The notes: generated by a model from the sequence alone, not told the origin. A DNA stretch of 64,000 nt from an uncultured Candidatus Binatia bacterium (GCA_965200125.1 OZ241332.1:2830438-2894437); one strand, 5' to 3'; shown: positions 2,055 to 52,395, counted from the stretch's first letter. Numbers and translations are program-made.

Positions 2055-2717
2055 GTGATCGAACCCGCTTCGGCCTCCACGCTCGACCCCTGGGCGGCCT
2101 CCCTCGCCTACGCCCCCTACGCGACCGTGCTGGTGCTGCTCATCGCCGGCGTCTGGATCATCCCGCTGGCCGAGGAAATGGCGCTCGTGGCGGCCGGCTA
2201 TTTGTACTATTCGGACCAAGTCCAGTTGACCGCCATTCTGATCGTGCTCGGCGTGGGGGTCTTCTTCGGCGACTTCGCCGGCTTCTGGCTGGGTCGGCGC
2301 TGGATCGGACGACGCCCGTATCCGGCCATGCTCCGGTTCCGCCGCGGCGCCTGGGTGGAGCGGTTCAAACGCTGGCTCGACACGCACCGCAACCGCGCCC
2401 TGTTCCTGACGCGCTTTCTGCCCGGGCTGCGGCTCCCCGCCCACGTCATCGTCGGCGCGCACGGCATGCCGACCGCGACCTACGTGCGCATCTCGCTGCT
2501 CGCCATCCTGGTCTATGTGCCGCTGATCTTCACGCTGGCGTATTCGTTCGGCGCGGAGATCGACGCGGCGTTGGCCTCGATCCACCGGCTCGGCACCGCG
2601 GCCTGGGCCGTCATGCTGGCCGCGGCCGTGTCGTGGATCGTCGTCCGCTATCGTGTCGGACGCGGGACGTGGGCCGGTTCGGACGGTGGCGCCGGGGGAA
2701 CGGCGGCCCGGCATTGA
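2055..2717 (+). CDS. DedA/SNARE-associated (VTT domain) family membrane protein.
   Basis: Multi-TM protein with the DedA signature FLTRFLPGLRLPAHVIVGA. GTG start. Confidence 0.75.
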   Translation: MIEPASASTLDPWAASLAYAPYATVLVLLIAGVWIIPLAEEMALVAAGYLYYSDQVQLTAILIVLGVGVFFGDFAGFWLGRRWIGRRPYPAMLRFRRGAWVERFKRWLDTHRNRALFLTRFLPGLRLPAHVIVGAHGMPTATYVRISLLAILVYVPLIFTLAYSFGAEIDAALASIHRLGTAAWAVMLAAAVSWIVVRYRVGRGTWAGSDGGAGGTAARH

Positions 2718-2787
2718 GCGTCACATGGGTTTTGCTTATGGTCAGGGGTCACACCCTCGCACCCCTGCATCGACGGGAGGAATCGCT

Positions 2788-2886
2788 ATGGAAAATCAAG
2801 GGCAAGGTCCGGGCTGGGTCGTCTTTCTGTTGTGGATGCTCGTCCCCACGCTGGTGTTCTTTCTGGCCCTGACGTTTACCGGCTAG
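2788..2886 (+). CDS. Possible 32-aa small hydrophobic protein (MENQGQGPGWVVFLLWMLVPTLVFFLALTFTG).
   Basis: GGAGGA lies 7 nt upstream of the ATG. There is a single TM helix. Short, no homology evidence. Confidence 0.25.
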   Translation: MENQGQGPGWVVFLLWMLVPTLVFFLALTFTG

Positions 2887-2924
2887 GAGCGGCCGTGAAC
2901 CGAACCGGAGGAGGGACGACTCCC

Positions 2925-3956
2925 ATGACACGCGACACCGTTCGCCGACACGGAACGAAACCCGGGCTCTTGGCCATAACCATGCTCGTCTGCGGCCTGT
3001 GCCTGACGTGGCGTGGCGCGGCCGCGGACGAGGTCATCGCCACGGTCGGCGATACCCCGATCACCGACGCCGACATCGCCCCGCACGTCAAAGGCCCGCT
3101 GCTGCGGCTGAACACGCAGATCTACGAAGTCAAGAAGCGCGCGGCCGACGCGATCATCGACGCCCGCCTGATCGATGAAGAGGCCGCCCGCCGCGGCATC
3201 GGCAGGACGCAACTGCTGCAGCGGGAAGTGGACGAGAAGACCGGGACGGTCGGCGACGCCGCGGTCGAGGCGTATTACGACGCCAACGCGGCACAATTCG
3301 ACGGGAAGCCGTTGGAAGAGATCCGCGACCGGCTCACGGCCGCGCTCCAGGCGCAAGCCCGGGCCGAACGCCAAGCCGCGTTTACCGCGGAGCTGCGCAA
3401 GAACGTCGCCATCGACTTCGCCCTGAGCCCGCCCCTGGTCGAGGTGCCGGTCGGCGCGGCGCCGACCCGGGGGCCGGCCGACGCCCCGGTGACGCTGGTC
3501 GAGTTCTCCGACTATCAATGACCCTACTGCGCCCGAGTGCAGGCTGCACTCACCCGCCTTCGCGCAACCTATCCGGACACGCTCCGCGTCGTCTTCAAGG
3601 ATTTTCCGCTCGCCCATATTCACCCGCAGGCGCACACCGCGGCACAGGCCGCGCGCTGCGCCGGCGACCAGAACAAGTACTGGGAGTACCACGACGTGCT
3701 GTTCGCCCACACCGACGCGCTGGAACCCGATCACCTCAAGGGCTATGCGACCGACGTCGGGCTCGACGCCGCCGAGTTCGCCGCCTGTCTGGAAGAGCAG
3801 ACCCACGCGGCGGCCGTGGATCGAGACTCGGCACTCGGGACGCAACTCGGGGTCACCGGCACGCCGGCCTTCTTCGTCAACGGCCGCTTCATGTCCGGCG
3901 CCCAGTCGTACGCGACCTTCGTCGATGCGGTCGAGGAAGCCCTGGCGCGCCGATAA
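2925..3956 (+). CDS. Periplasmic DsbA-family thiol:disulfide oxidoreductase (SurA-like N-terminal region plus thioredoxin fold) with an in-frame TGA at 3519-3521 at the first Cys position of the CxxC motif. Best read as a selenocysteine selenoprotein (U-P-Y-C).
   Basis: Track ORFs 2832..3521 and 3537..3956 share one frame. Sequence reads VTLVEFSDYQ-TGA-PYCARVQ against the canonical DsbA EFSDYQCPYC. RBS GGAGGAGGG before the ATG at 2925. Signal-peptide-like N-terminus LLAITMLVCGLCLTWRGAAA. Confidence 0.65.
3535..3551 (+). promoter_or_regulatory. Putative bacterial SECIS-like hairpin gagtgcaGGCtgcactc (7-bp stem, GGC loop), 14 nt downstream of the in-frame TGA.
   Basis: Perfect inverted repeat read in the sequence. 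Resembles the E. coli fdhF SECIS apical element GUUGCAGGUCUGCAC. Confidence 0.45.
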
Positions 3957-4019
3957 CGGCTCCTCACCGCGGGCGCGCGGCGCGCCGGACGGGAAATAGT
4001 TGGCGCTCCGAAAACGCGT

Positions 4020-5267
4020 GTGGTAAAGCGTCGCCGCATGTCAGCCAGGAAAGCCAAGGCCGAACGCCGGGCCGCGGCCGAGCGCCAGACCGAACGAACG
4101 CCCGACGGTCGGGCCGCTCAGCGCGGCCCCGGCCGGGCGCTGTGGGCCGTGCGCGGCCTCGCCGGAATCGGCCTCGGGCTGGCTGGTCATCTGACCCTGC
4201 TGCATTACCAGGCCGGTGCAACGGGCGAGATCGAGTCGGCGCTGTGCGGCGCGGGCGCCACGGTCAACTGCAATCTGGTGCTGGGCAGCGCGTACGCCAC
4301 GCTGTTCGGCTGGCCGATCGCGCTGTACGCCGCGGCGACGTACGCCGCGCTGCTGGCCGGGACGTTTCTGGCGACGCTGTGGCCCGCGCTGTTGCTGTGC
4401 GGCTGGGCGTTCGTCTTTTCGGTGTACCTGGCAGCGCTGTCCTTTTTCGGCATCGGCGCGGTGTGCCCGCTGTGTACCGCGTTGTACGTCGTGAACCTCG
4501 GGCTCGCCGGCTGCGCCGCGCTGCTGGGACGCGCGACCGGCAGCGTGAGCGGAGCCGGACTCGGTTTCGCGGCGCTGGGCTTCGGCGTGGCGTTGGCCGG
4601 CATCGGCCTGACCCAGGCGCGCGACGCGGCCTTCGTCACCCCGCCGCAGGATTTTCTGGCCCCCGCGGCCGAAGACATGGACGCCGGCTTCGTGCGCTAT
4701 TACTACGAGCAGCCCGCGGTCGTGTTGCGCGGGGAGGAACGCCACGTCAAAGGCCCGGCCGACGCGGCGCTGACCCTGCACGAATTCGTCGATTTCCGCT
4801 GCCCGCAGTGCGCCATCGCCAGCGAGACGCTCCACAAGTTCCAGCGCGCCAACCCCGACGACGTGCGCCTCGTGTTCCGGCACTATCCGCTCGACCGCGG
4901 CTGTAACTCCGGCATGCAGAACCAGGTCCATCCCGGGGCGTGCGCCGCGGCCATGGCGGCCGAATGCGCGGGGGAGCAGGGGAAGTTCTGGGAGTATGCC
5001 GACCTGCTGTTCGCGGATCAGACCCGCTTCGCCCGCGCCGACTTCGAGGCGCACGCGGAGGCGCTCCGCCTGGACCTCGAGGGGTTTCGCGCCTGTCTGG
5101 ACGAGACGCGCATCCGGGAGTTGGTCCGCGCCGACATCGCCGAAGCCGAGCGCATCGAAATCCGGGCCACGCCGACCCTGGTCGCCAACGGCCGGCTGAT
5201 TCAGGGCGTGCCGCCGGCCGGTAAACTGGCCACGCTCGTGACCCTCGTGAAAACGCAGACGAACTGA
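4020..5267 (+). CDS. VKOR (vitamin K epoxide reductase) membrane domain fused to a C-terminal DsbA-like thioredoxin domain.
   Basis: Multi-TM region with CPLC plus a C-terminal FVDFRCPQC...HYPL domain. Start is ambiguous (GTG 4020 or ATG 4038). Confidence 0.75.
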   Translation: MVKRRRMSARKAKAERRAAAERQTERTPDGRAAQRGPGRALWAVRGLAGIGLGLAGHLTLLHYQAGATGEIESALCGAGATVNCNLVLGSAYATLFGWPIALYAAATYAALLAGTFLATLWPALLLCGWAFVFSVYLAALSFFGIGAVCPLCTALYVVNLGLAGCAALLGRATGSVSGAGLGFAALGFGVALAGIGLTQARDAAFVTPPQDFLAPAAEDMDAGFVRYYYEQPAVVLRGEERHVKGPADAALTLHEFVDFRCPQCAIASETLHKFQRANPDDVRLVFRHYPLDRGCNSGMQNQVHPGACAAAMAAECAGEQGKFWEYADLLFADQTRFARADFEAHAEALRLDLEGFRACLDETRIRELVRADIAEAERIEIRATPTLVANGRLIQGVPPAGKLATLVTLVKTQTN

Positions 5268-5626: not shown

Positions 5627-6670
5627 ATGCCGACGGTCGGATACGTCCCCGACACCCACGGTGGGCCGTACGAACAGGCCGAACCGGACCCGCAACGTTC
5701 GGCCGACTTCGCGCAGCAGTTGCTGAACGAGGCAGTGGAAGCCGAAAAGGCGGGCTTCGACGCGGTGTTCGTGCCCGAACGCCACGCGCGCACCGAGTGC
5801 ATGTTTCCTTCGACGCTGACGCTCATGTCCGCGCTGGCCGTGCGTACCGAACGGGTCAAGATCGGCTCCTACGTCATCATGCCGCCGCTGTACGACCCCG
5901 TCCATCTGGCCGAACAGGCGGCCATGATCGACGTGCTGTCGCGCGGCCGGCTGATTCTGGGCGTCGGCGTGGGCTATCACGCGGACTATTTCAACCATTT
6001 CGGGGTGCCGATCCGCCAGCGCGAAGGGCGCTTCGAGGAAAGCCTGGAAATTCTCGACACGGCGTGGACGCACGAAGGGCCGGTCGCGCATCACGGCAAG
6101 TATTACGACTACGACGCCATTCACGTCACGCCCAAACCCTACCAGCAGCCGCGTCCCCCGGTCTGGATCGGGGCGTTCGGGCCCAAGTCCATCGCGCGGG
6201 CCGGCCGCTTGGGCGACGTGTGGGGCATGGCGCCGTTCTTCGACGGCTTCGACACGCTCAAGGCCCAACTCGACATCTACCGGCAGGCCGCAGAGCAGGC
6301 CGGCAAACGTCCGAGCGTCGCCCTGCTGCGCGACGGCTGGCTGGCCTCCAGCATGGAGGAAGCCGAAGCGACCTTCGGCCGGCTGTGGGTGGAGGAGTGC
6401 AAGTTCTACCTGCGCATGGGCATGCTCGCGCCGACCGACGAATTCCGGTCCGAGTCCGACTTCACGCCCGCCAAGGTGCGGCGTTTCCTGCCCATCGGCA
6501 CCAAGGACGACTGGCTCGAACATCTGCATCTGTGGCAACGCGAGTTGGGCGTCGAACACTTCGTGCTGCGCTGCCGGGTGCCGATGGGGCCGCGGCCCGA
6601 GCAGGTCGTCGAGTGCATCCAGCGCATCGGGGAAGAAATCCTGCCCGCGCTCAAGACCCTCGGGGAGTGA
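5627..6670 (+). CDS. LLM class (luciferase-like) flavin/F420-dependent oxidoreductase.
   Basis: Luciferase-like TIM-barrel motifs (DAVFVPERH, LILGVGVGY). Confidence 0.85.
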   Translation: MPTVGYVPDTHGGPYEQAEPDPQRSADFAQQLLNEAVEAEKAGFDAVFVPERHARTECMFPSTLTLMSALAVRTERVKIGSYVIMPPLYDPVHLAEQAAMIDVLSRGRLILGVGVGYHADYFNHFGVPIRQREGRFEESLEILDTAWTHEGPVAHHGKYYDYDAIHVTPKPYQQPRPPVWIGAFGPKSIARAGRLGDVWGMAPFFDGFDTLKAQLDIYRQAAEQAGKRPSVALLRDGWLASSMEEAEATFGRLWVEECKFYLRMGMLAPTDEFRSESDFTPAKVRRFLPIGTKDDWLEHLHLWQRELGVEHFVLRCRVPMGPRPEQVVECIQRIGEEILPALKTLGE

Positions 6671-7904: not shown

Positions 7905-8193
7905 AGACCGGACCTCGAGCCTGTCGAAAAGGGTGTGGGATCACCTCGTCTGTAATTCCCATTAAAATCCCTCCCCGAAGGGAGAGGGGTGAGCAGAGGG
8001 GCTGCCACCGTGGCATGGATATCTGATTCCGCCGGCCCCCTCGTCGCCCCGGCGAAAGCCGGGGTCTAGGGGAAAGGTGTCCTCTGGATTCCGGCTTTCG
8101 CCGGAATGACGAAGGGGGCTGGACAGGGGCGGAAGGACAGAGGGGTATGACGAGGAAAAATCGTCTTCGGGATCGTCTTGTATATAATTCCCC
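7905..8193. mobile_element. Compound MITE-like repeat: solo right-end fragment 7905-7951 plus a copy sharing about 170 bp at >95% identity with 47405-47576. Ends in TIR gggatcgtcttgtatataattccc.
   Basis: Direct sequence comparison with the other copies in the window. Confidence 0.6.
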
Positions 8194-13170: not shown

Positions 13171-13195
13171 CGTCACGATCAGCCCTTCCCGCAGG

Positions 13196-13275
13196 TCGGA
13201 TCAGCCGGAGGCGTAATCCGACATTCCCACCGCTTCCACCGTCGGATTACGCTTCGCTAATCCGACCTACAGGAC
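13196..13275. repeat. REP-like palindromic repeat (gtcggatcagccggaggcgtaatccgaca...gtcggattacgcttcgctaatccgacct). A second copy lies at 52314-52395.
   Basis: About 80 bp shared between the two loci. Internal inverted repeats gcgtaatccg/cggattacgc. Confidence 0.55.
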
Positions 13276-28133: not shown

Positions 28134-29801
28134 CTAGAACGTCGGCGGCACGTACTCGCCGAACGTTTCGCGGAGCGCGTCGGAAATTTCACCCAGTGTG
28201 GCGTATGCGCGCACCGCGTCGAGAATCGCCGGCATCAGATTCGTCCCGTCCCGAGCCGCGCGACTCACGCCGTCGAGTGCCGTTCGAGCCACCGCGGCGT
28301 TCCGTTCGGCGCGCACCGCGGCCACTTTTTCCTGCTGACGGCGTTCCAGGGCCAGATCGACCTTGAGCAGGTCGTCGTGCGCGTCCTCCGCAACCTGGAA
28401 GTCGTTGACGCCGACGATGATCTGCTCCCTGCTTTCGACCGCCCGCTGATACCGAAAGGCGGCCTCGTGAATCTCGCGTTGCTGAAACCCCGTCTCGATA
28501 GCCTTGACCGCGCCGCCGAGGGCGTCGATCCGGTCGATGTACGCGACCGCCTTGGCTTCCAACTCGTCCGTCAACGACTCGACGAAATACGACCCGGCCA
28601 ACGGATCGATGGTGTCGGCCACGCCCGACTCGTGCGCGATGACCTGCTGCGTCCGCAGGGCGACGCGCACCGCGTCTTCGGTCGGCAGGGCGAGCGCCTC
28701 GTCCTTCGAGTTGGTGTGCAGCGAGTTGGTGCCACCCAGGGCCGCGGCCAGGGCCTGGAGCGTCACCCGAATGACGTTGTTGTCGGGCTGCTGCGCAGTC
28801 AGCGTCGAACCCGCGGTCTGGGCGTGGGTGCGCAGCATCCAGGAGCGTGGGTTCTTGGCCCCGAACCGCTCCCTTATGATCCTGGCCCACAGCCGCCGTG
28901 CGGCGCGGAACTTCGCCACTTCTTCGAAGAAGTTGTTGTGGACGTTGAAAAAGAACGACAGCCGCGACGCGAAGCGGTCGACGTCCAGCCCGACCGACCG
29001 CGCCGCATCGACGTATGCGATCCCGTCGGCCAGCGTGAAGGCAATCTCCTGAGCCGCGGTCGAGCCGGCCTCGCGGATGTGGTAGCCGGAGATCGAAATC
29101 GTATTCCAGTTCGGCACCCGGTCCGCGCAGAACGCGAAAATGTCGGTGATGATGCGTAGCGACGGTCCAGGCGGATAGATGTACGTGCCGCGCGCGATGT
29201 ACTCCTTGAGCAAATCGTTCTGGATCGTACCGTTGACCTCGTCCCAGCCGACGCCCTGCTTTTCGGCGACGGCCAGATAGAGCGCCAGCAGGATGCCCGC
29301 GGTGGCGTTGATCGTCATCGAGGTGCTGACCTTCTCCAACGGAATCCCGTCCAGCAGAGTTTCCATGTCGGCCAGCGAATCGATCGCCACCCCGGCCCGA
29401 CCGACCTCGCCCGCGGCCAATGCGTGATCGGAGTCGCGGCCCATCTGGGTCGGCAGGTCGAAGGCGACCGACAATCCCGTCTGCCCCTGGTCGAGCAGAT
29501 AGCGGTAGCGGCGGTTGGACTCCTCGGCGGTTCCGAAGCCGGCATACTGCCGCATGGTCCAGAACCGCCCGCGGTACATCGTGGGCTGCACGCCGCGCGT
29601 GTAGGGATATCGGCCGGGGAAATCGAGCGTCTGCCGATAGTCGCGGCCGGCGGCGTCCTCGTCGGTGTACACCCGCTTGATCTCGATGCCCGACGACGTC
29701 TCGAACCGTTCTTTCCGTTCCGGGGAACGCGCGAGCGCCTTGCTCAGCACAGAGTCTTCCCAATCCTGACGGGCCTTGGCAGCCGTCTCCGCACTACTCA
29801 T
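28134..29801 (-). CDS. Methylmalonyl-CoA mutase family large (catalytic) subunit without a fused B12-binding domain (split acyl-CoA mutase).
   Basis: MCM N-terminal TIM-barrel motifs ([30 protein letters not shown]...LSVAFD). 555 aa. Confidence 0.85.
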
Positions 29802-29996
29802 AGAACATCCTCGAATCGGTCGAAAAATGGGCTCCCTGCCTATAGTAAATCGGTAGGAGAGACAACGGCGACAAGAGCAGTGCCTTTGTTTATAGCCTCA
29901 ATGTCAAGGTTACGATCCAGAGTGGATGTTGCTGAAAGTTTTATCCAGCGCAACGCCTGCGGCTATCTAGAAATAGGAATGGGACCGAGAGAAGAA

Positions 29997-30080: not shown

Positions 30081-30242
30081 ACACGGCGATGGTGGAAACG
30101 GCAGGATATTACCGAGCAAATAAGCGGAATGGCAAGGGAGACCGGAGGCCGCTCGCTGGAAGTCGCCCGGCGAGTGTGCCATAGTTTCATCTTTGTACGT
30201 CTCGCATTCTCGATTATCTACCAAATCCAGGGGGAATTACCC

Positions 30243-32342
30243 GTGTCCGTGGTCAGTGCTCCGACCGATGTCGCTTTACAGATCGACGCCGCTATCGACG
30301 CGGCTGCGGCGTGGCTGTACCGGAATCAGGCCGCGGACGGCCACTGGGTCGGCAAGCTGGAATCCAACTGCTGCATGGAGGCACAGTGGCTGCTGGCCAT
30401 GCACTTTCTGGACTATCGGCACCCGCGGCAAGCGGACATCGTACAGACACTGCTGAACGCCCAACGCGACGACGGTTCCTGGGAGATTTACTACGACGCC
30501 CCGGACGGGGACATCAATACGACGGTCGAATGTTACGCGGCGTTGCGCGCCAACGGGTTCGGCCCGGACGACGCCCGGCTGCGCACGGCGCGCGAGTGGA
30601 TATTCGCGCACGGCGGATTGCGCGAGATGCGCGTGTTCTCCCGTTACTGGCTCGCGCTGATCGGCGAGTGGCCGTGGCACAAGACCCCCAACCTGCCGCC
30701 CGAGCCGATCTTTCTGCCGTATTGGGTCCCGCTCAACCTCTATCACTTCGCCTCCTGGGCACGCGCCACGGTCGTGCCGCTGGCGGTGCTGTCGGCCCGT
30801 CGGGTCTCGCGTCCGTTGCCGCGGGAATCCCGCCTGGACGAACTGTTCCCCGCCGGACGCGACCGGGCGGATTATGACCTGCCGGCGCGGGCGGGAGCCG
30901 GGGTGTGGCACAAAGTCTTTCTGGTGGTCGACAAGCTGCTCCACACATACCAAACGCTTGGCCAGGGCATCGGCCAAGCGGTCGGAAGACGCCGCGGCTT
31001 GCTGCCCGGCCGAGAATCCGCGGTGCGCAACTGCCTGGAGTGGGTGATCCGGCATCAGGACGCCGACGGCGCGTGGGGCGGCATTCAGCCCCCGTGGATC
31101 TACAGTCTGATGGCACTCAAGGTCGAAGGCTATCCGCTGTCCCATCCGGTCATGGCCAAGGGGCTGGCAGCCCTCGACGACCGCTGGTCCTACACCCGCG
31201 ACGGCGGCCTCCACATCCAAGCCAGCCAATCGCCGGTCTGGGATACGCTGTTGTCCATGCTGGCGCTGCTCGACTGCCGCTTCCAACTCCAACAATCGGA
31301 ACCGCTCCAGCAGGCGCTCGGTTGGGTGCTGGAGAAGGAGGTACGGACCTACGGCGACTGGCAATACACCGTCCCGGAGGCGAAGCCCGGAGGATGGGCC
31401 TTCGAATACGAGAACGCCGCGTATCCCGACGTCGACGACACCGCGGTGGCACTGATCGTGCTGGCCCGGTTGTGCGCCCACGGCCCGCATGAACCGCGCT
31501 TCGAGGCCGCGATCTCGCGTGCCGTGGACTGGATGCTGGCCATGCAGTCGGACAACGGCGGCTGGGCCGCGTTCGACAAGAACAACGACCGGGGGCTCCT
31601 GACCAAGACGCCGTTTGCCGATTTCGGCGAGGCGCTCGACCCCCCCAGCGCAGACGTGACCGCCCACGTGCTGGAAGCCCTGGGTCTGCTCGGCTACGAC
31701 CGAACCCACCCCGCGGTTGCGCGCGGCCGCGCCTATCTCCTGGCCGAGCAGGAGCCGGAGGGAAGTTGGTTCGGCCGCTGGGGCGTGAACCACATCTACG
31801 GCACGGCCGCGGTGCTTCCCGCACTGCATGCAATCGGCGAGGACATGCACGCGACTCACATCCTGCTTGCTGCCCGCTGGCTCGTCGACCATCAGAACCA
31901 GGACGGCGGGTGGGGCGAAACCTGTGCTTCGTACGTGGACGACCGCTTGCGCGGGACCGGACCCAGCACCGCATCGCAAACCGCCTGGGCGCTGCTCGCG
32001 CTTTTATCCGTGGTCGGACACGATTTCGATGCCGCCATCCGTAGTGGGCTCGACTACCTGCTGCGCACGCAGCGCGACGGCACGTGGGACGAACGCTACT
32101 ACACCGGGACCGGATTTCCGGGCTATGGTACGGGTGCCCGCACGAATTTCCGCCTCCGGGAAATGAAACGGCTCTTTCAACAAGGCACGGAACTCCAACG
32201 CGGAGTCATGATCAATTACAACATGTACCGTCACTATTTCCCGCTCATGGCGCTGGGCCGCGCTCGTGCATATTTCCAGGCCGAGCCGCTTCAGGAAACG
32301 CCGGAAGCGGCTCGATACGCTCCCTCTTCGATTTCGGCGTGA
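30243..32342 (+). CDS. shc: Squalene-hopene cyclase.
   Basis: Several QW motifs (QAADGHW, QRDDGSW, QNQDGGWGE, QRDGTW) and the DVDDTA catalytic motif. AGGGGGAA RBS before the GTG at 30243. Confidence 0.9.
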   Translation: MSVVSAPTDVALQIDAAIDAAAAWLYRNQAADGHWVGKLESNCCMEAQWLLAMHFLDYRHPRQADIVQTLLNAQRDDGSWEIYYDAPDGDINTTVECYAALRANGFGPDDARLRTAREWIFAHGGLREMRVFSRYWLALIGEWPWHKTPNLPPEPIFLPYWVPLNLYHFASWARATVVPLAVLSARRVSRPLPRESRLDELFPAGRDRADYDLPARAGAGVWHKVFLVVDKLLHTYQTLGQGIGQAVGRRRGLLPGRESAVRNCLEWVIRHQDADGAWGGIQPPWIYSLMALKVEGYPLSHPVMAKGLAALDDRWSYTRDGGLHIQASQSPVWDTLLSMLALLDCRFQLQQSEPLQQALGWVLEKEVRTYGDWQYTVPEAKPGGWAFEYENAAYPDVDDTAVALIVLARLCAHGPHEPRFEAAISRAVDWMLAMQSDNGGWAAFDKNNDRGLLTKTPFADFGEALDPPSADVTAHVLEALGLLGYDRTHPAVARGRAYLLAEQEPEGSWFGRWGVNHIYGTAAVLPALHAIGEDMHATHILLAARWLVDHQNQDGGWGETCASYVDDRLRGTGPSTASQTAWALLALLSVVGHDFDAAIRSGLDYLLRTQRDGTWDERYYTGTGFPGYGTGARTNFRLREMKRLFQQGTELQRGVMINYNMYRHYFPLMALGRARAYFQAEPLQETPEAARYAPSSISA

Positions 32343-32548
32343 CATGGCGCCTCCTCTCTGCTCTTCGCAACATATTCTCCCGTTATGCTCAGGATGTTCT
32401 CTCCCCACTAATACGGGGTAGCGAGCTCATGAGCATCCATGACATCACAGCCCAGACATTGTTTAGACAGGTTGGTGTTACGTCTGCTTATCTCCCGATA
32501 TGGGCTGACTAACTGATTAGAGCTTCTGACAGAAGCTGAGAGGCTTCG

Positions 32549-34594
32549 ATGCTTGGACTCGTGTCACGAAACTGTCCGTCACCTGTTCGCAACAATTCAA
32601 TCTTGAGGATGCTCATCTTCCTCGTCGTCCCTTCCCTACTTCACATTCCAATTTTGTATTACTCATTAACGACGCCTTTTGGTCTGGTAGATGATTACGT
32701 ACTCTCGGGACATGTGCGCATATTCAATGATTCGTTTTTGGGCTGGTTGGACCGAACATTCCTGAATTTTAGCGACAGCCGTGCGAGATATAGACCTTTT
32801 TGGGAGATCTATAATGCGATTACATGGAGTCTTTTTGGTGCAACCCCATGGATGCATCACCTGAGCCGATGGATATTGCACTTTGGCGCGGTTTTTACTT
32901 TCTATGCTGCCTTTCGTGTTTTTTCTCGGAAATCGTCGGCAGCAAATTCTACCGTCCCGGCCGAATGCGAGAAGCTTGACGATCTGCTGCCTCTGATTTT
33001 CCTGGTGTACATCTATGTTTTCTTTCCGAACTCGCCCAGCTCCCGGTTGGGCCCCTTGGAAGTTTACACTGTCTCCTTTTTCGGCTTGTGCACCTGGATG
33101 ACAGCCCTCATGCTTTCCAAGAGGAGCAGGAGCAGAACATCTTCATCAATCCTGGAGCACGTCGTGTTCCACGTGGGCTACGTAGGCATCTGTTGGTCCA
33201 AGGAAGTTGGCGTCGCCGTAGCGGCATGGATATTAGTATTTTATTATGTTTTTCTCGTACCCGGGAACAACTGGAAAAAATTCATGAGCAGCACACCGCT
33301 GGCCCTGATCTTCTTTCACACTACTGGAATGGTGTACGTAGCCTCGAAAACGTCCGGCACCGGCTATAAGAACATCGGCGTCGTGCCAGAACCATTTTAT
33401 GAAAACGCAATAAGACTCCTCAAAGGGCTGTTTCAGATAGAGACGTCTCTGGGACTTACCGTCGGGTTCACTATTTTGTCCGTGATATCGCTCCTCTCCG
33501 TTGTCATCAAAATCGTCAATCGAAGACTCACAAATGAAAGTCTTTTTTTTCTGTTTCTCCTCGGCAGCTTTATGAGCATGTTCTCATTCCTCAGTTTGTC
33601 CTACGGCGTCGCGCTCCGCTACTGGTACGTCCTCATACCGGTATTTGCGATGTTGCTAGCTTTTTCCGTAAAAATCATCGTTGAAACTACCTGGCGACGT
33701 CATGCAATATTCACGTACCTGGGAGTGACCACATTAACCGGCTTTGTTGTGTTTTTCGTGGTTGTCAATTATTGCAATTTTCTATTCCAGACGACCGTTC
33801 AACATGCTCTGCGTTATGCTGATGGACGTTTGGTATCCGAAGTCTTCCATCTTATCGATCGGGGAGAGCACGTACAAATAGATCATACCGGGGCTTATGT
33901 TGAGAACCAACTTCTTTATTCTTTACCCCGTCATTCCGCTTATTTTCATCATCGAAATCTCCGCGTACGTAAAGACAAACCGGAAGTAGGAAGAGAGTAT
34001 TTCTTCATCACAAGGAGAACGTTGCCGGTCCTCGGAGATCCGCCTGTGACGATAGTCCCTTATTCGAACTACCCCCTCTTGTCGTATGCCTCGAGGATAG
34101 CAAGTTTCCTTCAAGGGAAGCCTGCATTCCTTGAAACGGACGGCGGGGTCCACTCCCCCGATCAGTACCAATGGAACATCCATCGTCTGACAAATGGAGA
34201 AGTCGAACTTTCTGTTCCTTCTGAAGCCCAAAAGCTTCTGATCCGTTCCAAATTCGATGTATACTTCAACCACGCTCAGAACATGCTGACTTTCTTTAAG
34301 GAATCCTGTCGGAAGGAGGACCTCCGCGCACCGTTTTTCCTGCACGTCATTCCCGTTGACATAGAAGATTTGCCCGAGCCCCGCAGAGAATATGGCTTCG
34401 ACAATCTGGACTTCTTCTTCCACGACTACGGGATACTGGACGGGAGCAACTGCGCGGCAGCACGGAGGCTTCCCGACTACCCGATCTCCAAAATTTCCAC
34501 TGGGCAGTACATTGACGAAGCCCGTCTATGGGAAGGGAGCAGCGAGCTTGATGGGCAATCGGGCAGCGACCTTCTCCCCTTTACAATGCCTTGA
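32549..34594 (+). CDS. Low-GC (about 47%) polytopic membrane protein with a C-terminal soluble domain, possibly a GT-C-fold glycosyltransferase (ArnT/PMT-like).
   Basis: About 12 TM helices. DD motif in the first loop (FGLVDDYV). Compositionally foreign. The family assignment is inferred. Confidence 0.4.
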   Translation: MLGLVSRNCPSPVRNNSILRMLIFLVVPSLLHIPILYYSLTTPFGLVDDYVLSGHVRIFNDSFLGWLDRTFLNFSDSRARYRPFWEIYNAITWSLFGATPWMHHLSRWILHFGAVFTFYAAFRVFSRKSSAANSTVPAECEKLDDLLPLIFLVYIYVFFPNSPSSRLGPLEVYTVSFFGLCTWMTALMLSKRSRSRTSSSILEHVVFHVGYVGICWSKEVGVAVAAWILVFYYVFLVPGNNWKKFMSSTPLALIFFHTTGMVYVASKTSGTGYKNIGVVPEPFYENAIRLLKGLFQIETSLGLTVGFTILSVISLLSVVIKIVNRRLTNESLFFLFLLGSFMSMFSFLSLSYGVALRYWYVLIPVFAMLLAFSVKIIVETTWRRHAIFTYLGVTTLTGFVVFFVVVNYCNFLFQTTVQHALRYADGRLVSEVFHLIDRGEHVQIDHTGAYVENQLLYSLPRHSAYFHHRNLRVRKDKPEVGREYFFITRRTLPVLGDPPVTIVPYSNYPLLSYASRIASFLQGKPAFLETDGGVHSPDQYQWNIHRLTNGEVELSVPSEAQKLLIRSKFDVYFNHAQNMLTFFKESCRKEDLRAPFFLHVIPVDIEDLPEPRREYGFDNLDFFFHDYGILDGSNCAAARRLPDYPISKISTGQYIDEARLWEGSSELDGQSGSDLLPFTMP

Positions 34595-35498
34595 CGTCGG
34601 CGTACGTGCCCACGTCGATGCCGAACGATTCGGCTTGGTGGAGCAGGTCGAGCGCGTTGCGCACGTGAGCGTAGTCGATCATCATCCCGTCGTACGTGAC
34701 CGCGGCCTTGCCGGCCTGCTCCGCGTCGGCCATGGCTTGCAACACTCCCTTGTTCCATTCGATCTCTTCGGGAGACGGAGAAAATATCTCGTTGGCAATC
34801 GGCACCGCGGACGGATGGATCAGCAGACAGCCCCGAAAGCCGATCTCCCGCCCGCGCTGAATCTGGGCGCGCACCAGATCCAGGTCGCCGACCTCCAGCG
34901 ATCCGCCGCCGATCGGATATTCGATCCCCGCGGCGCGTGCAGCCAAAAGGAGATGCGAGGCCATGTACAGCGTTTCGAGTCCCGAGCGCGTCCACTTGTA
35001 GCCGATCGCCTTGGTCACGTCGCCCGAGCGCGCTCCCACTGCACCGAGAATATTGCCGACGCGCGGACACGCGGTGGCGAGCTTGTAAGCGTCCATGATG
35101 CCGCGCGCCGTCTCCGGCAGCACCATGATTTCGATTCCGCCGACAGGCAGGTCTGCCTTGCGTTCGAACAACTCCAACCACGCGTCGACTTTGAGGACAT
35201 CTTCGACCTTCTCCAGCTTGGGCACTGCGACGGCGTCGAGCCCCTCGGTCACGACCGCTTCCACGTCTTCGCCCGTCAGGCCGGTATCCACACCATTCAG
35301 CCGTACGAACGCCCCAACTCCGCGACCGCGCAAGCCTTCGATTCCCTCGCGCACCACTTGCCGAGCCTGAGACTTTTCCGCAATCGGAACCGCGTCCTCC
35401 AGATCGATCATCAGCGCATCCGGCCCGTACTTCGGCGCCTTGGCGATCCAGTCGGGGCGGTTCCCCGGCACGAACAGGCTCGACCGATACAGCTTCAT
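34581..35498 (-). CDS. HpcH/HpaI aldolase / citrate lyase beta (CitE)-like CoA-ester lyase.
   Basis: CitE-family motifs (SLFVPGNRPDWIAKAPKYGPDALMIDLEDAV). Confidence 0.85.
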   Translation of the reverse strand: MKLYRSSLFVPGNRPDWIAKAPKYGPDALMIDLEDAVPIAEKSQARQVVREGIEGLRGRGVGAFVRLNGVDTGLTGEDVEAVVTEGLDAVAVPKLEKVEDVLKVDAWLELFERKADLPVGGIEIMVLPETARGIMDAYKLATACPRVGNILGAVGARSGDVTKAIGYKWTRSGLETLYMASHLLLAARAAGIEYPIGGGSLEVGDLDLVRAQIQRGREIGFRGCLLIHPSAVPIANEIFSPSPEEIEWNKGVLQAMADAEQAGKAAVTYDGMMIDYAHVRNALDLLHQAESFGIDVGTYADVKAL

Positions 35499-49135: not shown

Positions 49136-49408
49136 CTACTCGAAAAGGTCGGCGTGAGAGCCGGTACGTTCGAGCCGAAGAGACTGATCGTCGACCGAGT
49201 AAATCAGGATCCAGTCGGACTCGATGTGGCAGTCTCGGCAATTCTTCCAGTCGCCGGCCAGCGCATGGTCCCGATGTTCGGGGCCGAGAGCTTCGCTTTT
49301 CGCTAAACGGCTGACGACGACTCCCAGCTTTTCAACGTCTTTTCCCCGTCTGCGCATTCGTTCGACGTCCTTCCTGAACTGTTTCGTCTGAGAGAGCTTT
49401 TTCATCAT
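49136..49408 (-). CDS. yafQ: YafQ/RelE-family type II toxin (mRNA interferase).
   Basis: KDWKNCRDCHIESDWILIYSVDDQSLRLERTGSHADLF matches the YafQ C-terminus. Confidence 0.7.
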   Translation of the reverse strand: MMKKLSQTKQFRKDVERMRRRGKDVEKLGVVVSRLAKSEALGPEHRDHALAGDWKNCRDCHIESDWILIYSVDDQSLRLERTGSHADLFE

Positions 49409-49441
49409 TCTTCTTCCATCTTGTCTTCCCGGCAGGGATTT

Positions 49442-49611
49442 TTATTGGAGAATTACATACAAGAGGATCCTAGAATTCTCTCCTGACTTGTATCCGCAAC
49501 CCTTGGTTGAAAACCGTTTGACCTTCTGACAGGCTCGATGCATCGTAAGCTCGGGGACCAACCTTTCGAGCTTGTCGAAACGGGCGAAGGATCATCTCGT
49601 ATATAATCCCC
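49442..49611. mobile_element. MITE-like element (TIRs ggagaattacatacaagaggatcc / ggatcatctcgtatataatcccc) inserted between the dinJ stop and the yafQ start.
   Basis: The right TIR ends 2-3 nt from the dinJ stop codon at 49614-49616. 170 bp. Confidence 0.65.
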
Positions 49612-49886: not shown

Positions 49887-50013
49887 GGAAAAAACGTATT
49901 ACATATGCAACATGAAGACAACCTTCCTCGCCCCTCGAGTCCAGAGGGCCTGGTGTCGTTTTCCCTGCATTTTCTGTTATCCTCGCGCCGCTTTCTGACG
50001 AAGGAGGAAACGC

Positions 50014-50775
50014 ATGGCAGAACTGACGAAGGGCAAGGTTGCGCTGGTCACCGGCGCGGGATCGGGCATCGGACGGGCCGCGGCGCAGATATTCGCGCGC
50101 GAAGGCGCCAAGGTCGCGGCCGCGGACGTGAATCGGGCGAGCGCCGAGGAAACCGTCGGCATGATCCGCGAGGCGGGCGGCGAGGCGTTCGGTTTGCAGG
50201 CGGACGTGTCGAAGGCGGCAGAGGTCGAGGCGATGGTGGACGCGGTGGTCGGGACGTACGGCCGGCTGGATTGCGCGTTCAACAACGCCGGCATCGAAGG
50301 CGTATTGGCCTCCACGGCGGACTACACCGAGGCGGATTGGGCGCCGGTCATCGCCGTGAACCTCACGGGCGTGTGGCTGTGCATGAAGTACGAAATTCCG
50401 CGCCTGTTGGAGACCGGCGGCGGGGCCATAGTCAACACCTCGTCCGCGGCCGGATTGCTGGGCGCGCCGCGCATGCCGGCCTACGTCGCCAGCAAACATG
50501 GCGTCATCGGCCTGACCAAGACCGCGGCTCTGGAATACGCCAAATCCGGTGTGCGCGTGAACGCAGTCTGCCCCGGCGTGATCGACACGTCCATGGTGGG
50601 CAGGCTCAAGGAGCGCCGGCCGCGTATGTTCGAGAAGATCGTGCGGGGGGAGCCGATCGGTCGTATCGGCCAGCCTGAAGAGATCGCCGAGACCGCGGTC
50701 TGGTTGTGCTCGGACGCCGCCTCGTTCGTGACCGGCCACGCCATGTCCGTGGACGGCGGCATCGTGGCGCAGTAA
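50014..50775 (+). CDS. SDR family oxidoreductase, paralogue of 47741..48502 (about 70% identical; C-terminal 25 aa identical).
   Basis: TGAGSGIGRA, YVASKHGVIGLT and the identical tail WLCSDAASFVTGHAMSVDGGIVAQ. Confidence 0.9.
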   Translation: MAELTKGKVALVTGAGSGIGRAAAQIFAREGAKVAAADVNRASAEETVGMIREAGGEAFGLQADVSKAAEVEAMVDAVVGTYGRLDCAFNNAGIEGVLASTADYTEADWAPVIAVNLTGVWLCMKYEIPRLLETGGGAIVNTSSAAGLLGAPRMPAYVASKHGVIGLTKTAALEYAKSGVRVNAVCPGVIDTSMVGRLKERRPRMFEKIVRGEPIGRIGQPEEIAETAVWLCSDAASFVTGHAMSVDGGIVAQ

Positions 50776-51993: not shown

Positions 51994-52313
51994 CGATGCA
52001 TTAGCTGACAATGCTTCAGGCATCGAAGTATAGACCTCCCCCAACATCAAAAAGACGAGAACAGAGCTCGGAAGCTTTCTTTTCCTGCTTTCTGGTCGGA
52101 AGCTCGAAGTCGTCCGATCTTTCTGCGAATGAGTCTTCTATCTATGGTGACGACTTTGGCCAGACGAACAAGCGTCGGTTTCGGAAGTCCTGCATTGTTC
52201 CACTCTTACAAGACGACGTCGGAGACGAAGCTGAGGCCGCGAAGATGACTCGTCATCATGGCGACCACATAATGTTCGTTCAACCCTCTCTGCGTCTGCG
52301 GGAGCAGGCCCGT

Positions 52314-52395
52314 AGGTCGGATCAGCCGGAGGCGTAATCCGACATCTCCGCGGTACGCCATTTGTCGGATTACGCTTCGCTAATCCGACCTACCT
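52314..52395. repeat. Second copy of the REP-like palindromic repeat seen at 13196-13275.
   Basis: About 80 bp near-identical. Confidence 0.55.

What the first reader, a model, noticed from the sequence alone, without database searches (positions are those of the whole stretch)
2925..5267. DsbA-like oxidoreductase with TGA in place of the first CxxC cysteine, plus SECIS-like hairpin: probable Sec-containing periplasmic oxidoreductase paired with a VKOR-thioredoxin fusion
- ORFs 2832..3521 and 3537..3956 are one reading frame interrupted only by TGA at 3519-3521.
- The TGA sits where DsbA has its nucleophilic Cys: FSDYQ-TGA-PYC against the canonical FSDYQCPYC.
- A perfect 7-bp hairpin (gagtgca GGC tgcactc) lies 14 nt downstream. 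Its position and sequence resemble the apical stem-loop of bacterial SECIS elements.
- The N-terminus has a signal-peptide-like segment, so a periplasmic U-x-x-C thiol oxidase is implied.
- The next gene fuses a VKOR domain (CPLC) to a Cys-type thioredoxin domain (CPQC). That is the expected membrane re-oxidant partner.
- Gene callers would emit two truncated ORFs here.
Basis: partly seen in the sequence, partly recalled or inferred. Interest (0 to 1): 0.75.

Follow-up and report, generated by a model that had tools for sequence, protein, structure and literature searches.

The report
Selenocysteine DsbA-like oxidoreductase beside VKOR
This is a real but mis-callable gene for a secreted disulfide-bond enzyme in a Binatia bacterium, in which the catalytic cysteine is very probably replaced by selenocysteine encoded by UGA; this kind of selenoprotein has been known since 2005, so it is a solid new member rather than a new kind.

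Summary
ATG 2925 to TAA 3956 is one frame with a single TGA (3519-3521), at the first Cys of a DsbA-type CxxC motif (FSDYQ-U-PYC).

- **TGA is not an error.** At least 13 protein clusters (75-98% identical, independent assemblies) end at the same FSDYQ. One is a complete Candidatus Binatia chromosome.
- **The downstream part is translated.** It stays in frame, with dN/dS 0.18-0.25.
- **Sec/Cys pair.** Syntenic orthologs at 48-57% identity carry Cys there.
- **SECIS-like hairpin.** The 7-bp hairpin (3535-3551, loop GGC/GUC) is specific to the TGA forms. It is absent in Cys orthologs encoding the same peptide. It nearly matches the E. coli fdhF SECIS apex.
- **Independent lineages.** Four other TGA-type DsbA-like lineages have different hairpins in the SECIS distance range (two at nearly the same offset).
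- **Second selenoprotein gene.** A UGSC-family gene (46786-47319, TGA 47065) with a similar hairpin lies in the same window.
- **Sec machinery not seen.** No selA/B/D or tRNA-Sec occurs in the DNA I could read.

The protein has a signal peptide, a SurA-like chaperone domain and a DsbA domain. Its pairing with a VKOR-DsbA fusion is conserved. DsbA/DsbG-like UxxC selenoproteins are already catalogued, so this is a new member of a known kind.

The parts
2925..3956 (+). Selenoprotein gene, 343 codons: signal peptide, SurA-like chaperone domain and DsbA-like domain with a U-P-Y-C active site.
   Evidence: Single frame with one TGA. Pfam Thioredoxin_4 at 104.5 bits and DSBA at 97.2 bits with TGA read as Cys. 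Shine-Dalgarno GGAGGAGGG at 2907-2915. dN/dS is 0.18-0.38 on both sides of the TGA.
2925..3026 (+). Predicted export signal (residues 1-34): basic n-region, hydrophobic core LLAITMLVCGLCL, then AAA|DE. No lipobox.
   Evidence: Read from the sequence. Hydropathy maximum 2.28 at residue 14. AlphaFold2 gives a helix at 14-27 with low confidence. No SignalP-type predictor was available.
3030..3419 (+). SurA-like N-terminal chaperone-type helical domain (about residues 36-165).
3519..3521 (+). In-frame TGA, predicted Sec199, aligned to the invariant first Cys of CPxC.
   Evidence: The alignment column is invariant Cys in 21 full-length homologs. The TGA is conserved in L001-L005 and in clusters P0001-P0066.
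3535..3551 (+). SECIS-like apical hairpin GAGUGCA-GGC-UGCACUC. A possible lower stem pairs 3528-3532 with 3562-3566.
   Evidence: The stem is invariant in all Binatia TGA copies, with loop GGC or GUC. It is absent after TGC in the Cys orthologs L168 and L169, which encode the same ARVQAxL peptide. The core TGCAGG(T)CTGCAC matches the E. coli fdhF Sec140 SECIS apex at nearly the same offset.
3462..3953 (+). DsbA-like thioredoxin-fold domain (residues 180-343). It carries U199-P-Y-C202, a conserved Cys245/Cys288 pair and the T313-P314 loop.
   Evidence: Pfam. Invariant columns. The AlphaFold2 model of the 57%-identical Cys ortholog P0007 (pLDDT 90.7) matches 3gyk, C. diphtheriae DsbA/TsdA, BdbD, Wolbachia alpha-DsbA and ScsC.
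4038..5267 (+). VKOR-DsbA fusion protein (409 aa). VKOR domain at residues 37-157 with loop Cys pair (4245-4271) and CPLC (4464-4475). DsbA-like domain at residues 234-397 with CPQC (4800-4811).
   Evidence: Pfam VKOR 64.2 bits, Thioredoxin_4 84.8 bits, DSBA 62.9 bits. Coordinates. It is adjacent in all Sec-form loci and 1-2 genes away in the Cys-form orthologous loci.
2788..2886 (+). Conserved 32-aa hydrophobic ORF (MENQGQGPGWVVFLLWMLVPTLVFFLALTFTG) immediately upstream.
   Evidence: A 32-33 aa ORF is called at the same place in L001-L004 and in the Cys-form loci L168-L170. Its function is unknown.
2055..2717 (+). VTT/DedA-family membrane protein, first gene of the same-strand cluster in the Sec-form loci (context).
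   Evidence: Pfam VTT_dom 49.5 bits. Present upstream in L001-L004.
46786..47319 (+). Second selenoprotein gene of the window: a UGSC-family protein with in-frame TGA at 47065-47067 (ALAD-U-GSC) and hairpin CGUGCA-GUG-UGCACG at 47081-47095. It is supporting evidence that this genome decodes UGA as Sec.
   Evidence: NCBIfam NF041046 at 165.7 bits against a cut-off of 125. Fold. The same split gene is present in three other assemblies.

Best explanation
The gene at 2925-3956 encodes one 343-residue exported protein whose UGA at 3519-3521 is decoded as selenocysteine.

**Decoding (inferred).** SelB-GTP-Sec-tRNA(Sec) is recruited by the hairpin at 3535-3551, a bacterial-type SECIS inside the coding sequence. 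Its GUGCA/UGCAC stem and G-first triloop lie 20 nt after the UGA.

**Architecture.**
- A signal peptide.
- A SurA-like helical chaperone domain.
- A DsbA-fold domain with active site U199-P-Y-C202.

**Proposed catalysis (inferred).** The solvent-exposed Sec takes the place of the nucleophilic Cys of DsbA. It cycles between a selenolate and a Se-S bond with Cys202, exchanging with cysteines of unfolded envelope proteins held by the chaperone domain. The neighbouring membrane protein (VKOR domain plus its own periplasmic DsbA-like CPQC domain) most likely withdraws the electrons and passes them to a quinone. That would keep the selenoenzyme oxidised.

**Shown here.**
- The conserved TGA.
- The Sec/Cys pairing with orthologs.
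- Purifying selection downstream of the TGA.
- A hairpin specific to the Sec forms.
- The domain folds.
- Conserved linkage to VKOR-DsbA.
- A second selenoprotein gene in the window.

**Inferred only.**
- Actual Sec insertion.
- Export.
- Direction of electron flow (oxidase versus isomerase).
- VKOR as the direct partner.
For: - **Frame and motif.** One frame with a single TGA at the CxxC position.
- **Family.** Pfam DsbA/Thioredoxin_4 well above cut-off when TGA is read as Cys.
- **Conserved TGA.** Thirteen clusters of 196-198 aa (75-98% identical; P0001 alone has 51 member sequences) all end at FSDYQ.
- **Independent assemblies.** In five loci from different samples, including the complete Binatia chromosome OZ251505.1, the TGA and the downstream 144 codons are intact.
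- **Purifying selection.** dN/dS after the TGA is 0.18-0.25 at dS up to 0.41.
- **Sec/Cys pair.** The column is invariant Cys in 21 full-length homologs. The nearest of these (P0007 at 57% and P0015 at 48% identity) sit in syntenic loci.
- **Hairpin conservation.** The stem is unchanged across the Sec clade. It is missing in the Cys orthologs although they encode the same ARVQAxL peptide.
- **Other Sec lineages.** Four other TGA-type DsbA-like lineages are each nearest to Cys forms, and each has a hairpin 19-28 nt after the TGA:
  - L049: GAGGGUCG-GUC-CGACCCUC.
  - L085: AGAGUCG-GUC-CGACUCU.
  - L108/L121/L123: CUGGCG-CGGGU-CGCCAG.
  - L143: GUACG-GUC-CGUAC.
- **Control.** Only 5 of 228 Cys-type genes have a comparable hairpin.
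- **fdhF match.** The E. coli fdhF Sec140 SECIS apex GGUUGCA-GGUC-UGCACC shares the core UGCAGG(U)CUGCAC at nearly the same distance.
- **Second selenoprotein gene.** A UGSC-family gene with a GUGCA/UGCAC hairpin lies in the same window.
- **TGA is otherwise a stop.** Neighbouring genes terminate normally at TGA, so the code is not reassigned.
- **Folds.** DsbA-like catalytic domain and SurA-like N-domain.
- **Published criteria.** The criteria for bacterial selenoproteins are met: Sec/Cys pair, at least two sequences with the TGA, and a downstream stem-loop with a small G-containing loop (PMC1088965).
Against: - No selA, selB, selD or tRNA-Sec gene lies in the 64 kb window or in about 10 kb flanks of related loci. 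The Sec trait of this genome is therefore not directly shown.
- No Rfam SECIS family matches, even at E up to 10.
- The folding energy of the hairpin region is not better than shuffled sequence (z = -0.23).
- Within the Binatia clade the stem never varies, so there is no compensatory change inside the clade. The structural support comes from independent lineages, whose hairpins are offset by 1 nt or more.
- The oxidase role is not established. Among the structural neighbours are ScsC and BcfH, which I recall as isomerase/reductase-type enzymes with N-terminal oligomerisation domains.
- A Se-S bond is expected from general selenium chemistry to be a weaker oxidant than DsbA's disulfide.
- The structure of the exact window protein could not be predicted as one chain.
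Confidence: 0.85

Rival explanations
1. UGA acts mainly or only as a stop. The functional product would be the 198-residue exported SurA-like chaperone fragment, and the downstream thioredoxin part would be untranslated or made separately from GTG 3537.
For: Gene callers produce exactly these two products. A GTG lies at 3537. Sec insertion is known to compete with termination (general knowledge).
Against: The downstream 144 codons stay in the same frame with dN/dS 0.18-0.25. The split would fall between strand beta1 and the active-site helix of one thioredoxin fold. A fragment starting at 3537 would have no signal peptide and no nucleophilic residue. The GTG is part of the hairpin.
Confidence: 0.06
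2. UGA is read through by a standard tRNA (Cys, Trp or Arg near-cognate) without the selenocysteine system. The hairpin would only slow the ribosome or release factor 2.
For: The Sec machinery was not seen in the available DNA. Rfam gives no SECIS match.
Against: The hairpin resembles the SelB-binding apex of E. coli fdhF in sequence and distance. The same stem type follows the TGA of a second gene of a recognised (seleno)protein family in this window. The TGA replaces a redox Cys, the classic Sec position. Independent DsbA-like TGA lineages also carry G-containing small loops (first base G in three of four) 19-28 nt after the TGA.
Confidence: 0.05
3. The gene is a pseudogene, or the TGA is an assembly or sequencing error for TGC/TGT.
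For: A single-base change separates TGA from TGC/TGT. Another long gene in the window (helicase, 37762-41769) does carry internal stops.
Against: The identical TGA occurs in at least 13 clusters and five loci from different runs and assemblers, at up to 25% protein divergence, with no other stop or frameshift and with strong purifying selection.
Confidence: 0.02
4. This rival concerns function, not decoding. The selenoprotein would be a disulfide isomerase or reductase (ScsC/DsbC/DsbG-like) kept reduced by an unseen DsbD/ScsB-type partner, not an oxidase recycled by VKOR. The VKOR-DsbA fusion would be a self-contained oxidase that merely shares the locus.
For: Foldseek hits include ScsC (7rgv, 4xvw, 5idr) and BcfH (7jve), with alignments extending into their N-terminal helical regions. 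The closest NCBIfam model is the 'DsbG-like' (seleno)lipoprotein family (PMC13188914). The VKOR protein already has its own DsbA domain. The Sec forms in L049 and L085 have no VKOR detectable by tblastn, and none is evident among the ORFs read next to the gene. Selenium favours fast exchange over strong oxidising power (general chemistry).
Against: Linkage to VKOR-DsbA is kept in Sec and Cys orthologs across about 50% divergence. No DsbD/ScsB/CcdA-type gene was found among the genes read in the window. The best fold matches are oxidases: 3gyk-type, C. diphtheriae DsbA and BdbD.
Confidence: 0.35

Closest known systems
DsbG-like UxxC selenoprotein family (NCBIfam NF041057, 'Rcas_1661 family thioredoxin-like (seleno)lipoprotein'; Zhang et al. 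2006, PMC1794560; listed in PMC13188914)
   Same: It is a DsbA/DsbG-type thioredoxin fold with Sec at the first position of UxxC and Cys-form homologs. It is the best NCBIfam hit of the window protein (E = 3.4e-31).
   Different: The score of 108.7 is far below the family cut-off of 190. Only profile positions 81-246 align. The window protein has a SurA-like N-domain and no lipobox.
DsbA-like selenoprotein form 1 (PF01323, UxxC; COG2761/FrnE type; Sargasso Sea, PMC1088965)
   Same: DsbA-fold protein with UxxC and a bacterial SECIS directly after the UGA. An example turned up here in L143 (VFSDYV-U-PWC, hairpin GUACG-GUC-CGUAC).
   Different: It is a different DsbA subfamily. L143 is at most 33% identical to any Thioredoxin_4-type domain fetched (the window protein's type). 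FrnE structures rank only 41st-50th among the fold matches.
E. coli fdhF SECIS (Sec140)
   Same: A stem-loop inside the ORF. The apex GGUUGCA-GGUC-UGCACC compares with GAGUGCA-GGC-UGCACUC here. The loop starts 18 nt (fdhF) versus 20 nt (here) after the UGA.
   Different: Here there is a triloop instead of a tetraloop and no bulged U. The lower stem differs. SelB binding is untested.
VKOR-based disulfide-forming systems: Mycobacterium VKOR with DsbA, and the Synechococcus VKOR-thioredoxin fusion (from my knowledge of Dutton et al. 2008 and Li et al. 2010; not read here)
   Same: A membrane VKOR domain with a loop Cys pair and CxxC, fused to a periplasmic thioredoxin-fold CxxC domain and encoded next to a DsbA-like protein.
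   Different: The neighbouring DsbA-like protein carries Sec and a SurA-like domain. No paper in the searched library mentions VKOR, DsbA and selenocysteine together.
SurA-like periplasmic chaperones (PEB4, Cj1289, HP0175, PpiD, SurA)
   Different: Those proteins carry a parvulin PPIase domain. Here a DsbA domain occupies that place. The Pfam score is below cut-off.
ScsC / BcfH (DsbA-fold proteins with N-terminal helical domains)
   Same: DsbA-like catalytic domain preceded by a helical N-terminal region, with Foldseek probability 1.00.
   Different: They have Cys active sites and are partnered with ScsB/DsbD-type reductases (my knowledge). Here the conserved neighbour is VKOR.

Membership tests
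Bacterial selenoprotein gene (criteria of PMC1088965) | In-frame TGA aligned to a conserved (catalytic) Cys in homologs (Sec/Cys pair). | tested here: met
   The TGA at 3519-3521 aligns to the invariant C199 column of 21 full-length homologs.
Bacterial selenoprotein gene (criteria of PMC1088965) | TGA conserved in at least two different sequences, which excludes a sequencing error. | tested here: met
   Thirteen clusters at 75-98% identity end at FSDYQ. Five loci, including a complete Binatia chromosome, carry the TGA.
Bacterial selenoprotein gene (criteria of PMC1088965) | The ORF continues after the TGA and is conserved as protein. | tested here: met
   144 codons stay in frame in all copies, with dN/dS 0.18-0.25.
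Bacterial selenoprotein gene (criteria of PMC1088965) | Stem-loop immediately downstream with a small apical loop containing G (bacterial SECIS). | tested here: met
   A 7-bp stem with loop GGC/GUC 20 nt after the UGA. It is specific to the Sec forms, and analogous hairpins occur in four other TGA lineages. Only 5 of 228 Cys controls match it. It resembles the fdhF apex.
Bacterial selenoprotein gene (criteria of PMC1088965) | Match to a curated SECIS covariance model. | tested here: not met
   No Rfam SECIS family is reported for 3400-3700 even at E up to 10. As far as I recall, Rfam's bacterial SECIS models are clade-specific, so this is weak negative evidence.
Bacterial selenoprotein gene (criteria of PMC1088965) | selA, selB, selC (tRNA-Sec) and selD present in the same genome. 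| not testable with these tools
   None lies in the window or the fetched flanks. The rest of the genome cannot be read. A second selenoprotein gene in the window gives indirect support.
Bacterial selenoprotein gene (criteria of PMC1088965) | Selenium actually incorporated at the UGA. | not testable with these tools
   Needs 75Se labelling or mass spectrometry.
DsbA family (Pfam PF01323 / PF13462) | Profile score above the curated cut-off. | tested here: met
   Thioredoxin_4 at 104.5 bits (cut-off 23.2) and DSBA at 97.2 bits (cut-off 25.6).
DsbA family (Pfam PF01323 / PF13462) | Thioredoxin fold with an inserted helical domain, a CxxC-position motif at the helix N-terminus, and a conserved Thr-Pro (cis-Pro) loop. 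| tested here: met
   Shown on the 57%-identical Cys ortholog P0007. The model has pLDDT 90.7, and the top PDB matches are DsbA-like proteins with TM (target) of 0.75-0.87 for the single-domain top matches (0.58-0.60 for the longer C. diphtheriae chains). U199-P-Y-C202 and T313-P314 are in invariant columns.
NF041057 DsbG-like thioredoxin-like (seleno)lipoprotein | Whole-protein score at or above the curated cut-off (190 bits). | tested here: not met
   108.7 bits, covering the catalytic domain only.
NF041057 DsbG-like thioredoxin-like (seleno)lipoprotein | Lipoprotein signal (lipobox Cys). | tested here: not met
   Neither Cys23 nor Cys26 is preceded by [LVI][ASTVI][GAS]. The c-region is AAA|DE (by eye).
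VKOR-thioredoxin-fold fusion (neighbour gene 4038-5267) | VKOR domain above the Pfam cut-off, with a loop Cys pair and a membrane CxxC. | tested here: met
   PF07884 at 64.2 bits (cut-off 27.5). C70-x7-C78 and C143-P-L-C146.
VKOR-thioredoxin-fold fusion (neighbour gene 4038-5267) | Quinone-dependent re-oxidation of a DsbA-like partner. | not testable with these tools
   Only conserved gene linkage is shown.
SurA-like chaperone N-domain | Profile or fold match to the SurA N-terminal domain. | tested here: inconclusive
UGSC family (seleno)protein NF041046 (second gene, 46786-47319) | Score above the curated cut-off, with U/C in the UGSC motif. | tested here: met
   165.7 bits against a cut-off of 125. 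The TGA lies in ALAD-U-GSC.

The most novel reading that the evidence does not exclude
A selenium-dependent branch of oxidative protein folding. In this reading, a chaperone-fused Sec-DsbA hands disulfides to envelope proteins and is recycled by a VKOR-DsbA quinone reductase in a presumably aerobic Binatia bacterium (the window also encodes a squalene-hopene cyclase). It would be the first case where Sec sits in the primary disulfide donor of a VKOR pathway. It would also be a natural counterpart of the synthetic diselenide folding catalysts.
Probability: 0.4. Interest if true: 0.5.

Novelty: new member of a known kind. Interest (0 to 1): 0.38.

Why it matters
- **Annotation.** This gene is split into two 'hypothetical' or truncated ORFs in every public assembly seen here. 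The same is true of the UGSC gene. Selenoproteomes of Binatia and other uncultured phyla are therefore under-counted.
- **Evolution.** The Binatia orthologous group contains both Cys and Sec forms in the same gene neighbourhood. This is a clean natural pair for asking what Sec buys a DsbA-type enzyme. The DsbA family has also switched between Cys and Sec several times.
- **Biochemistry.** The conserved link to VKOR-DsbA and the SurA-like domain gives a testable model of chaperone-coupled, selenium-based disulfide exchange in the cell envelope.

Tried and rejected
- **Rfam scans.** The gathering scan of the whole window found only tRNA-Leu. The permissive scan of 3400-3700 gave only chance-level hits and no SECIS family.
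- **Folding energy.** The hairpin region is not different from shuffles, so thermodynamics alone cannot support the SECIS.
- **Sec machinery.** ARAGORN on the window and 11 loci found no tRNA-Sec. Pfam scans of about 50 ORFs of the window found no SelA/SelB/SelD domains.
- **JGI metagenome scan.** No close relative was found (best 41% identity). The scan did yield the independent TGA lineages L085, L108, L121, L123 and L143.
- **VKOR in distant loci.** tblastn with the VKOR domain found it only in the Binatia loci. L049 and L085 show no VKOR next to the gene.
- **Structure of the joined protein.** I used the Cys ortholog P0007 and the window's own N-terminal 198 residues instead.
- **VKOR in solved structures.** The PDB sequence search with the VKOR fusion matched only its DsbA half.
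- **Literature.** Nothing relevant was found for Binatia/Binatota with selenium, and nothing at all for VKOR with DsbA and selenocysteine.
- **Other in-frame TGAs.** The TGAs at 6668, 26974 and 57361 are ordinary gene ends followed by a new gene in the same frame. A TGA candidate at L005:722 (-) looks like chance.
- **Genetic-code reassignment.** Rejected, because neighbouring genes end at TGA.


Full report
**1. The observation**

The region 2925-3956 (+) translates as a single 343-codon frame. It has one internal stop, TGA at 3519-3521, in the context ...APVTLVEFSDYQ*PYCARVQAALTRL.... A strong Shine-Dalgarno sequence (GGAGGAGGG, 2907-2915) precedes the ATG.

With the TGA read as Cys, residues 180-337 match Pfam Thioredoxin_4 (104.5 bits) and DSBA (97.2 bits). 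The N-terminal part matches SurA_N_3 weakly.

The perfect hairpin GAGTGCA-GGC-TGCACTC lies at 3535-3551.

The next gene (4038-5267) is a VKOR domain fused to a DsbA-like domain:
- a loop Cys pair at 4245-4271;
- CPLC at 4464-4475;
- CPQC in the DsbA-like domain at 4800-4811.

**2. The TGA is real and conserved**

The protein search returned thirteen clusters of 196-198 residues, 75-98% identical to the N-terminal part. Every one of them ends at ...VEFSDYQ. The nearest cluster alone stands for 51 member sequences.

I fetched five loci from different samples and assemblers (ENA, Logan, NCBI). All carry TGA at the same codon, followed by 144 intact in-frame codons that end at the same LARR-stop.

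One of these loci is a complete chromosome labelled 'uncultured Candidatus Binatia bacterium' (OZ251505.1). Its protein is 79% identical to the window protein, which places the window in Binatia.

Between the window and these copies, dS reaches 0.39-0.41 in the part after the TGA while dN/dS is 0.18-0.25. This constraint is at least as strong as in the part before the TGA, where dN/dS is 0.22-0.38. The downstream part is therefore translated in this frame.

Gene callers split the gene in every assembly.

TGA is used as an ordinary stop by neighbouring genes, so the genetic code is not reassigned.

**3. Sec/Cys pair**

In an alignment with 21 full-length homologs (320-360 aa, 42-55% identity), the TGA falls in an invariant Cys column of CP[YF]C.

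The closest Cys forms are P0007 (57%) and P0015 (48%). They are orthologs, because they lie in the same gene neighbourhood:
- a Trp-halogenase-like flavoprotein;
- a LysM protein;
- a 33-aa ORF;
- the DsbA-like gene;
- a luciferase-like monooxygenase;
- the VKOR-DsbA fusion;
- an acyl-CoA dehydrogenase.

One orthologous group thus contains both Cys and Sec versions.

**4. The hairpin as SECIS**

On energy alone the hairpin is unremarkable in this GC-rich DNA (z = -0.23), and no Rfam SECIS model matches. The comparative evidence is much stronger.

(a) The stem is identical in all Binatia TGA copies. Only the loop differs, GGC or GUC.

(b) The Cys orthologs L168 and L169 encode the same peptide A-R-V-Q-A-x-L. 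They use codons that destroy the complementarity.

(c) Four other lineages of DsbA-like genes with TGA at the same position turned up among the 164 fetched loci. Each is most similar to Cys forms rather than to other Sec forms. Each has its own hairpin with a small G-containing loop 19-28 nt after the TGA:

| Lineage | Source | Hairpin |
|---|---|---|
| L049 | Acidobacteria MAG | GAGGGUCG-GUC-CGACCCUC |
| L085 | metagenome contig | AGAGUCG-GUC-CGACUCU |
| L108/L121/L123 | metagenome contigs | CUGGCG-CGGGU-CGCCAG |
| L143 | metagenome contig | GUACG-GUC-CGUAC |

(d) Among 228 distinct Cys-type CPxC genes in the same loci, only 5 (2.2%) have a hairpin as good as the window's at that distance.

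(e) I fetched the experimentally defined SECIS of E. coli fdhF for comparison. It reads UGA-N11-GGUUGCA-GGUC-UGCACC. The core UGCAGG(U)CUGCAC is shared with the window at nearly the same offset.

These features are the ones used in the literature to call bacterial selenoproteins (PMC1088965).

**5. Does this organism use Sec?**

I found no tRNA-Sec and no SelA/SelB/SelD domains in the window or in the flanks of related loci. The rest of the genome could not be read.

A systematic scan of the window looked for in-frame TGAs with coding signal on both sides. It returned one further good candidate: ORF 46786-47319, with TGA at 47065-47067 in the motif ALAD-U-GSC.
- With U read as C, it scores 165.7 bits against NCBIfam NF041046, 'UGSC family (seleno)protein' (cut-off 125).
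- Its TGA is followed by CGUGCA-GUG-UGCACG at 47081-47095. This is the same GUGCA/UGCAC stem type, at 19 nt.
- The same split gene occurs in three other assemblies.

Two selenoprotein-type genes with matching hairpins in 64 kb make a working Sec system in this genome very likely. This is still indirect evidence.

**6. What the protein is**

- **N-terminus.** Residues 1-34 look like a type I signal peptide or signal anchor, with no lipobox.
- **Catalytic domain.** This was modelled on the Cys ortholog P0007 (pLDDT 90.7). It matches DsbA-like proteins: 3gyk, C. diphtheriae DsbA/TsdA, B. subtilis BdbD, Wolbachia alpha-DsbA, ScsC and BcfH.
- **Conserved residues.** A Cys245/Cys288 pair and the Thr313-Pro314 loop are invariant.

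The architecture is thus a chaperone domain fused to a DsbA domain. A parvulin domain would sit in that place in SurA-like proteins.

**7. How it probably works**

This section is inference.
- Sec199 replaces the exposed nucleophilic Cys of DsbA.
- It would alternate between a selenolate and a Se-S bond with Cys202.
- It would exchange with substrate cysteines presented by the chaperone domain.

The VKOR-DsbA fusion is linked to the gene in both Sec and Cys orthologs. It is the obvious electron acceptor, which makes an oxidase cycle the leading model.

An isomerase or reductase role cannot be excluded, and I give it about one chance in three:
- ScsC and BcfH, which I recall as isomerase/reductase-type enzymes, are among the fold matches.
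- The VKOR protein already has its own DsbA domain.
- The other Sec lineages lack a VKOR neighbour.
- A Se-S bond is expected to be a weaker oxidant but a faster exchanger (general selenium chemistry).

**8. Comparison with what is known**

UxxC selenoproteins of the DsbA-like (COG2761) and DsbG-like (COG1651) types were described in 2005-2006 (PMC1088965; PMC1794560). They are listed in a 2026 review, together with the UGSC family (PMC13188914).

- The window protein's best NCBIfam hit is the DsbG-like (seleno)lipoprotein model NF041057. At 108.7 bits it is far below the 190-bit cut-off, and the protein lacks a lipobox. It is therefore not a member of that equivalog family, but of a sister DsbA-like subfamily with a SurA-like N-domain.
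- I found no paper connecting Sec-DsbA proteins with VKOR.
- I found no paper describing Sec use in Binatia.

**9. Verdict**

- Probability that the UGA is decoded as Sec: about 0.85.
- Novelty: a new member of a known kind (new lineage, new domain combination, conserved VKOR linkage), not a new mechanism.
- Interest: moderate, 0.38.

The decisive missing test is a search of the complete Binatia chromosome for selA, selB, selC and selD, followed by 75Se or mass-spectrometric confirmation.

Noticed in passing
window 46786-47319 (+); TGA 47065-47067; hairpin 47081-47095: A second selenoprotein gene. It is a UGSC-family protein split by an in-frame TGA in ALAD-U-GSC (NF041046, 165.7 bits against a cut-off of 125), with a GUGCA/UGCAC hairpin 19 nt after the TGA. 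The same split occurs in three other assemblies (L165-L167).
   Followed up: yes
L049:1194 (+), L085:3562 (+), L108/L121/L123:3052 (+), L143:5065 (-): Four further lineages of DsbA-like genes with TGA in place of the first CxxC cysteine and a hairpin 19-28 nt downstream. Each is most similar to Cys forms, which points to recurrent Cys/Sec switching in the DsbA family. L085 has the same SurA-like plus DsbA architecture.
   Followed up: partly
window 37762-41769 (-): A 1335-codon frame for a DEAD / Helicase_C / MrfA-Zn-binding (MZB) helicase is interrupted by two in-frame stops: TGA at 39754-39756 and TAG at 39469-39471. It lies in a region of lower GC (0.59). It is probably a decaying or split gene. 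An MZB ORF of similar size (522 aa) is also called in L165.
   Followed up: partly
window 8036-8192, 47427-47576, 59616-59720; also 13188-13270 / 52309-52393; and 49532-49611 / 61687-61766 / 62817-62896: Several families of short intergenic repeats, some with internal palindromes (for example ...CCCCGGCGAAAGCCGGGG...GGATTCCGGCTTTCGCCGGAATGACG). They are REP/MITE-like elements scattered between genes.
   Followed up: no
window 32300-34600: A low-GC island (GC 0.49 against 0.64 for the window). It holds one 681-aa multi-pass membrane protein (32549-34594). A likely counterpart in L165 (639 aa) is annotated DUF6798. It may have been acquired horizontally.
   Followed up: no
window 47615-48502 and 49999-50775: Two paralogous short-chain dehydrogenase genes (about 80% identical DNA, 2273 nt apart). 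They flank a toxin-antitoxin-like insert: a YafQ/ParE-type toxin at 49136-49441, with HicB-like genes at the same place in L165.
   Followed up: no
window 2055-2886 (+): A VTT/DedA-family membrane protein and a conserved 32-aa hydrophobic ORF precede the selenoprotein gene in all Sec-form loci. The small ORF also precedes the Cys orthologs. DedA proteins have been linked to selenite uptake or resistance in the literature (recalled from memory, not checked).
   Followed up: no
window 30129-32342 (+), 28134-29897 (-), many luciferase-like and acyl-CoA genes: The window's gene content includes a squalene-hopene cyclase, a methylmalonyl-CoA mutase, three luciferase-like monooxygenases, LuxC/LuxE-like acyl reductase and synthetase genes, and hydantoinase A/B. 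This fits the Binatia assignment obtained from L005.
   Followed up: no
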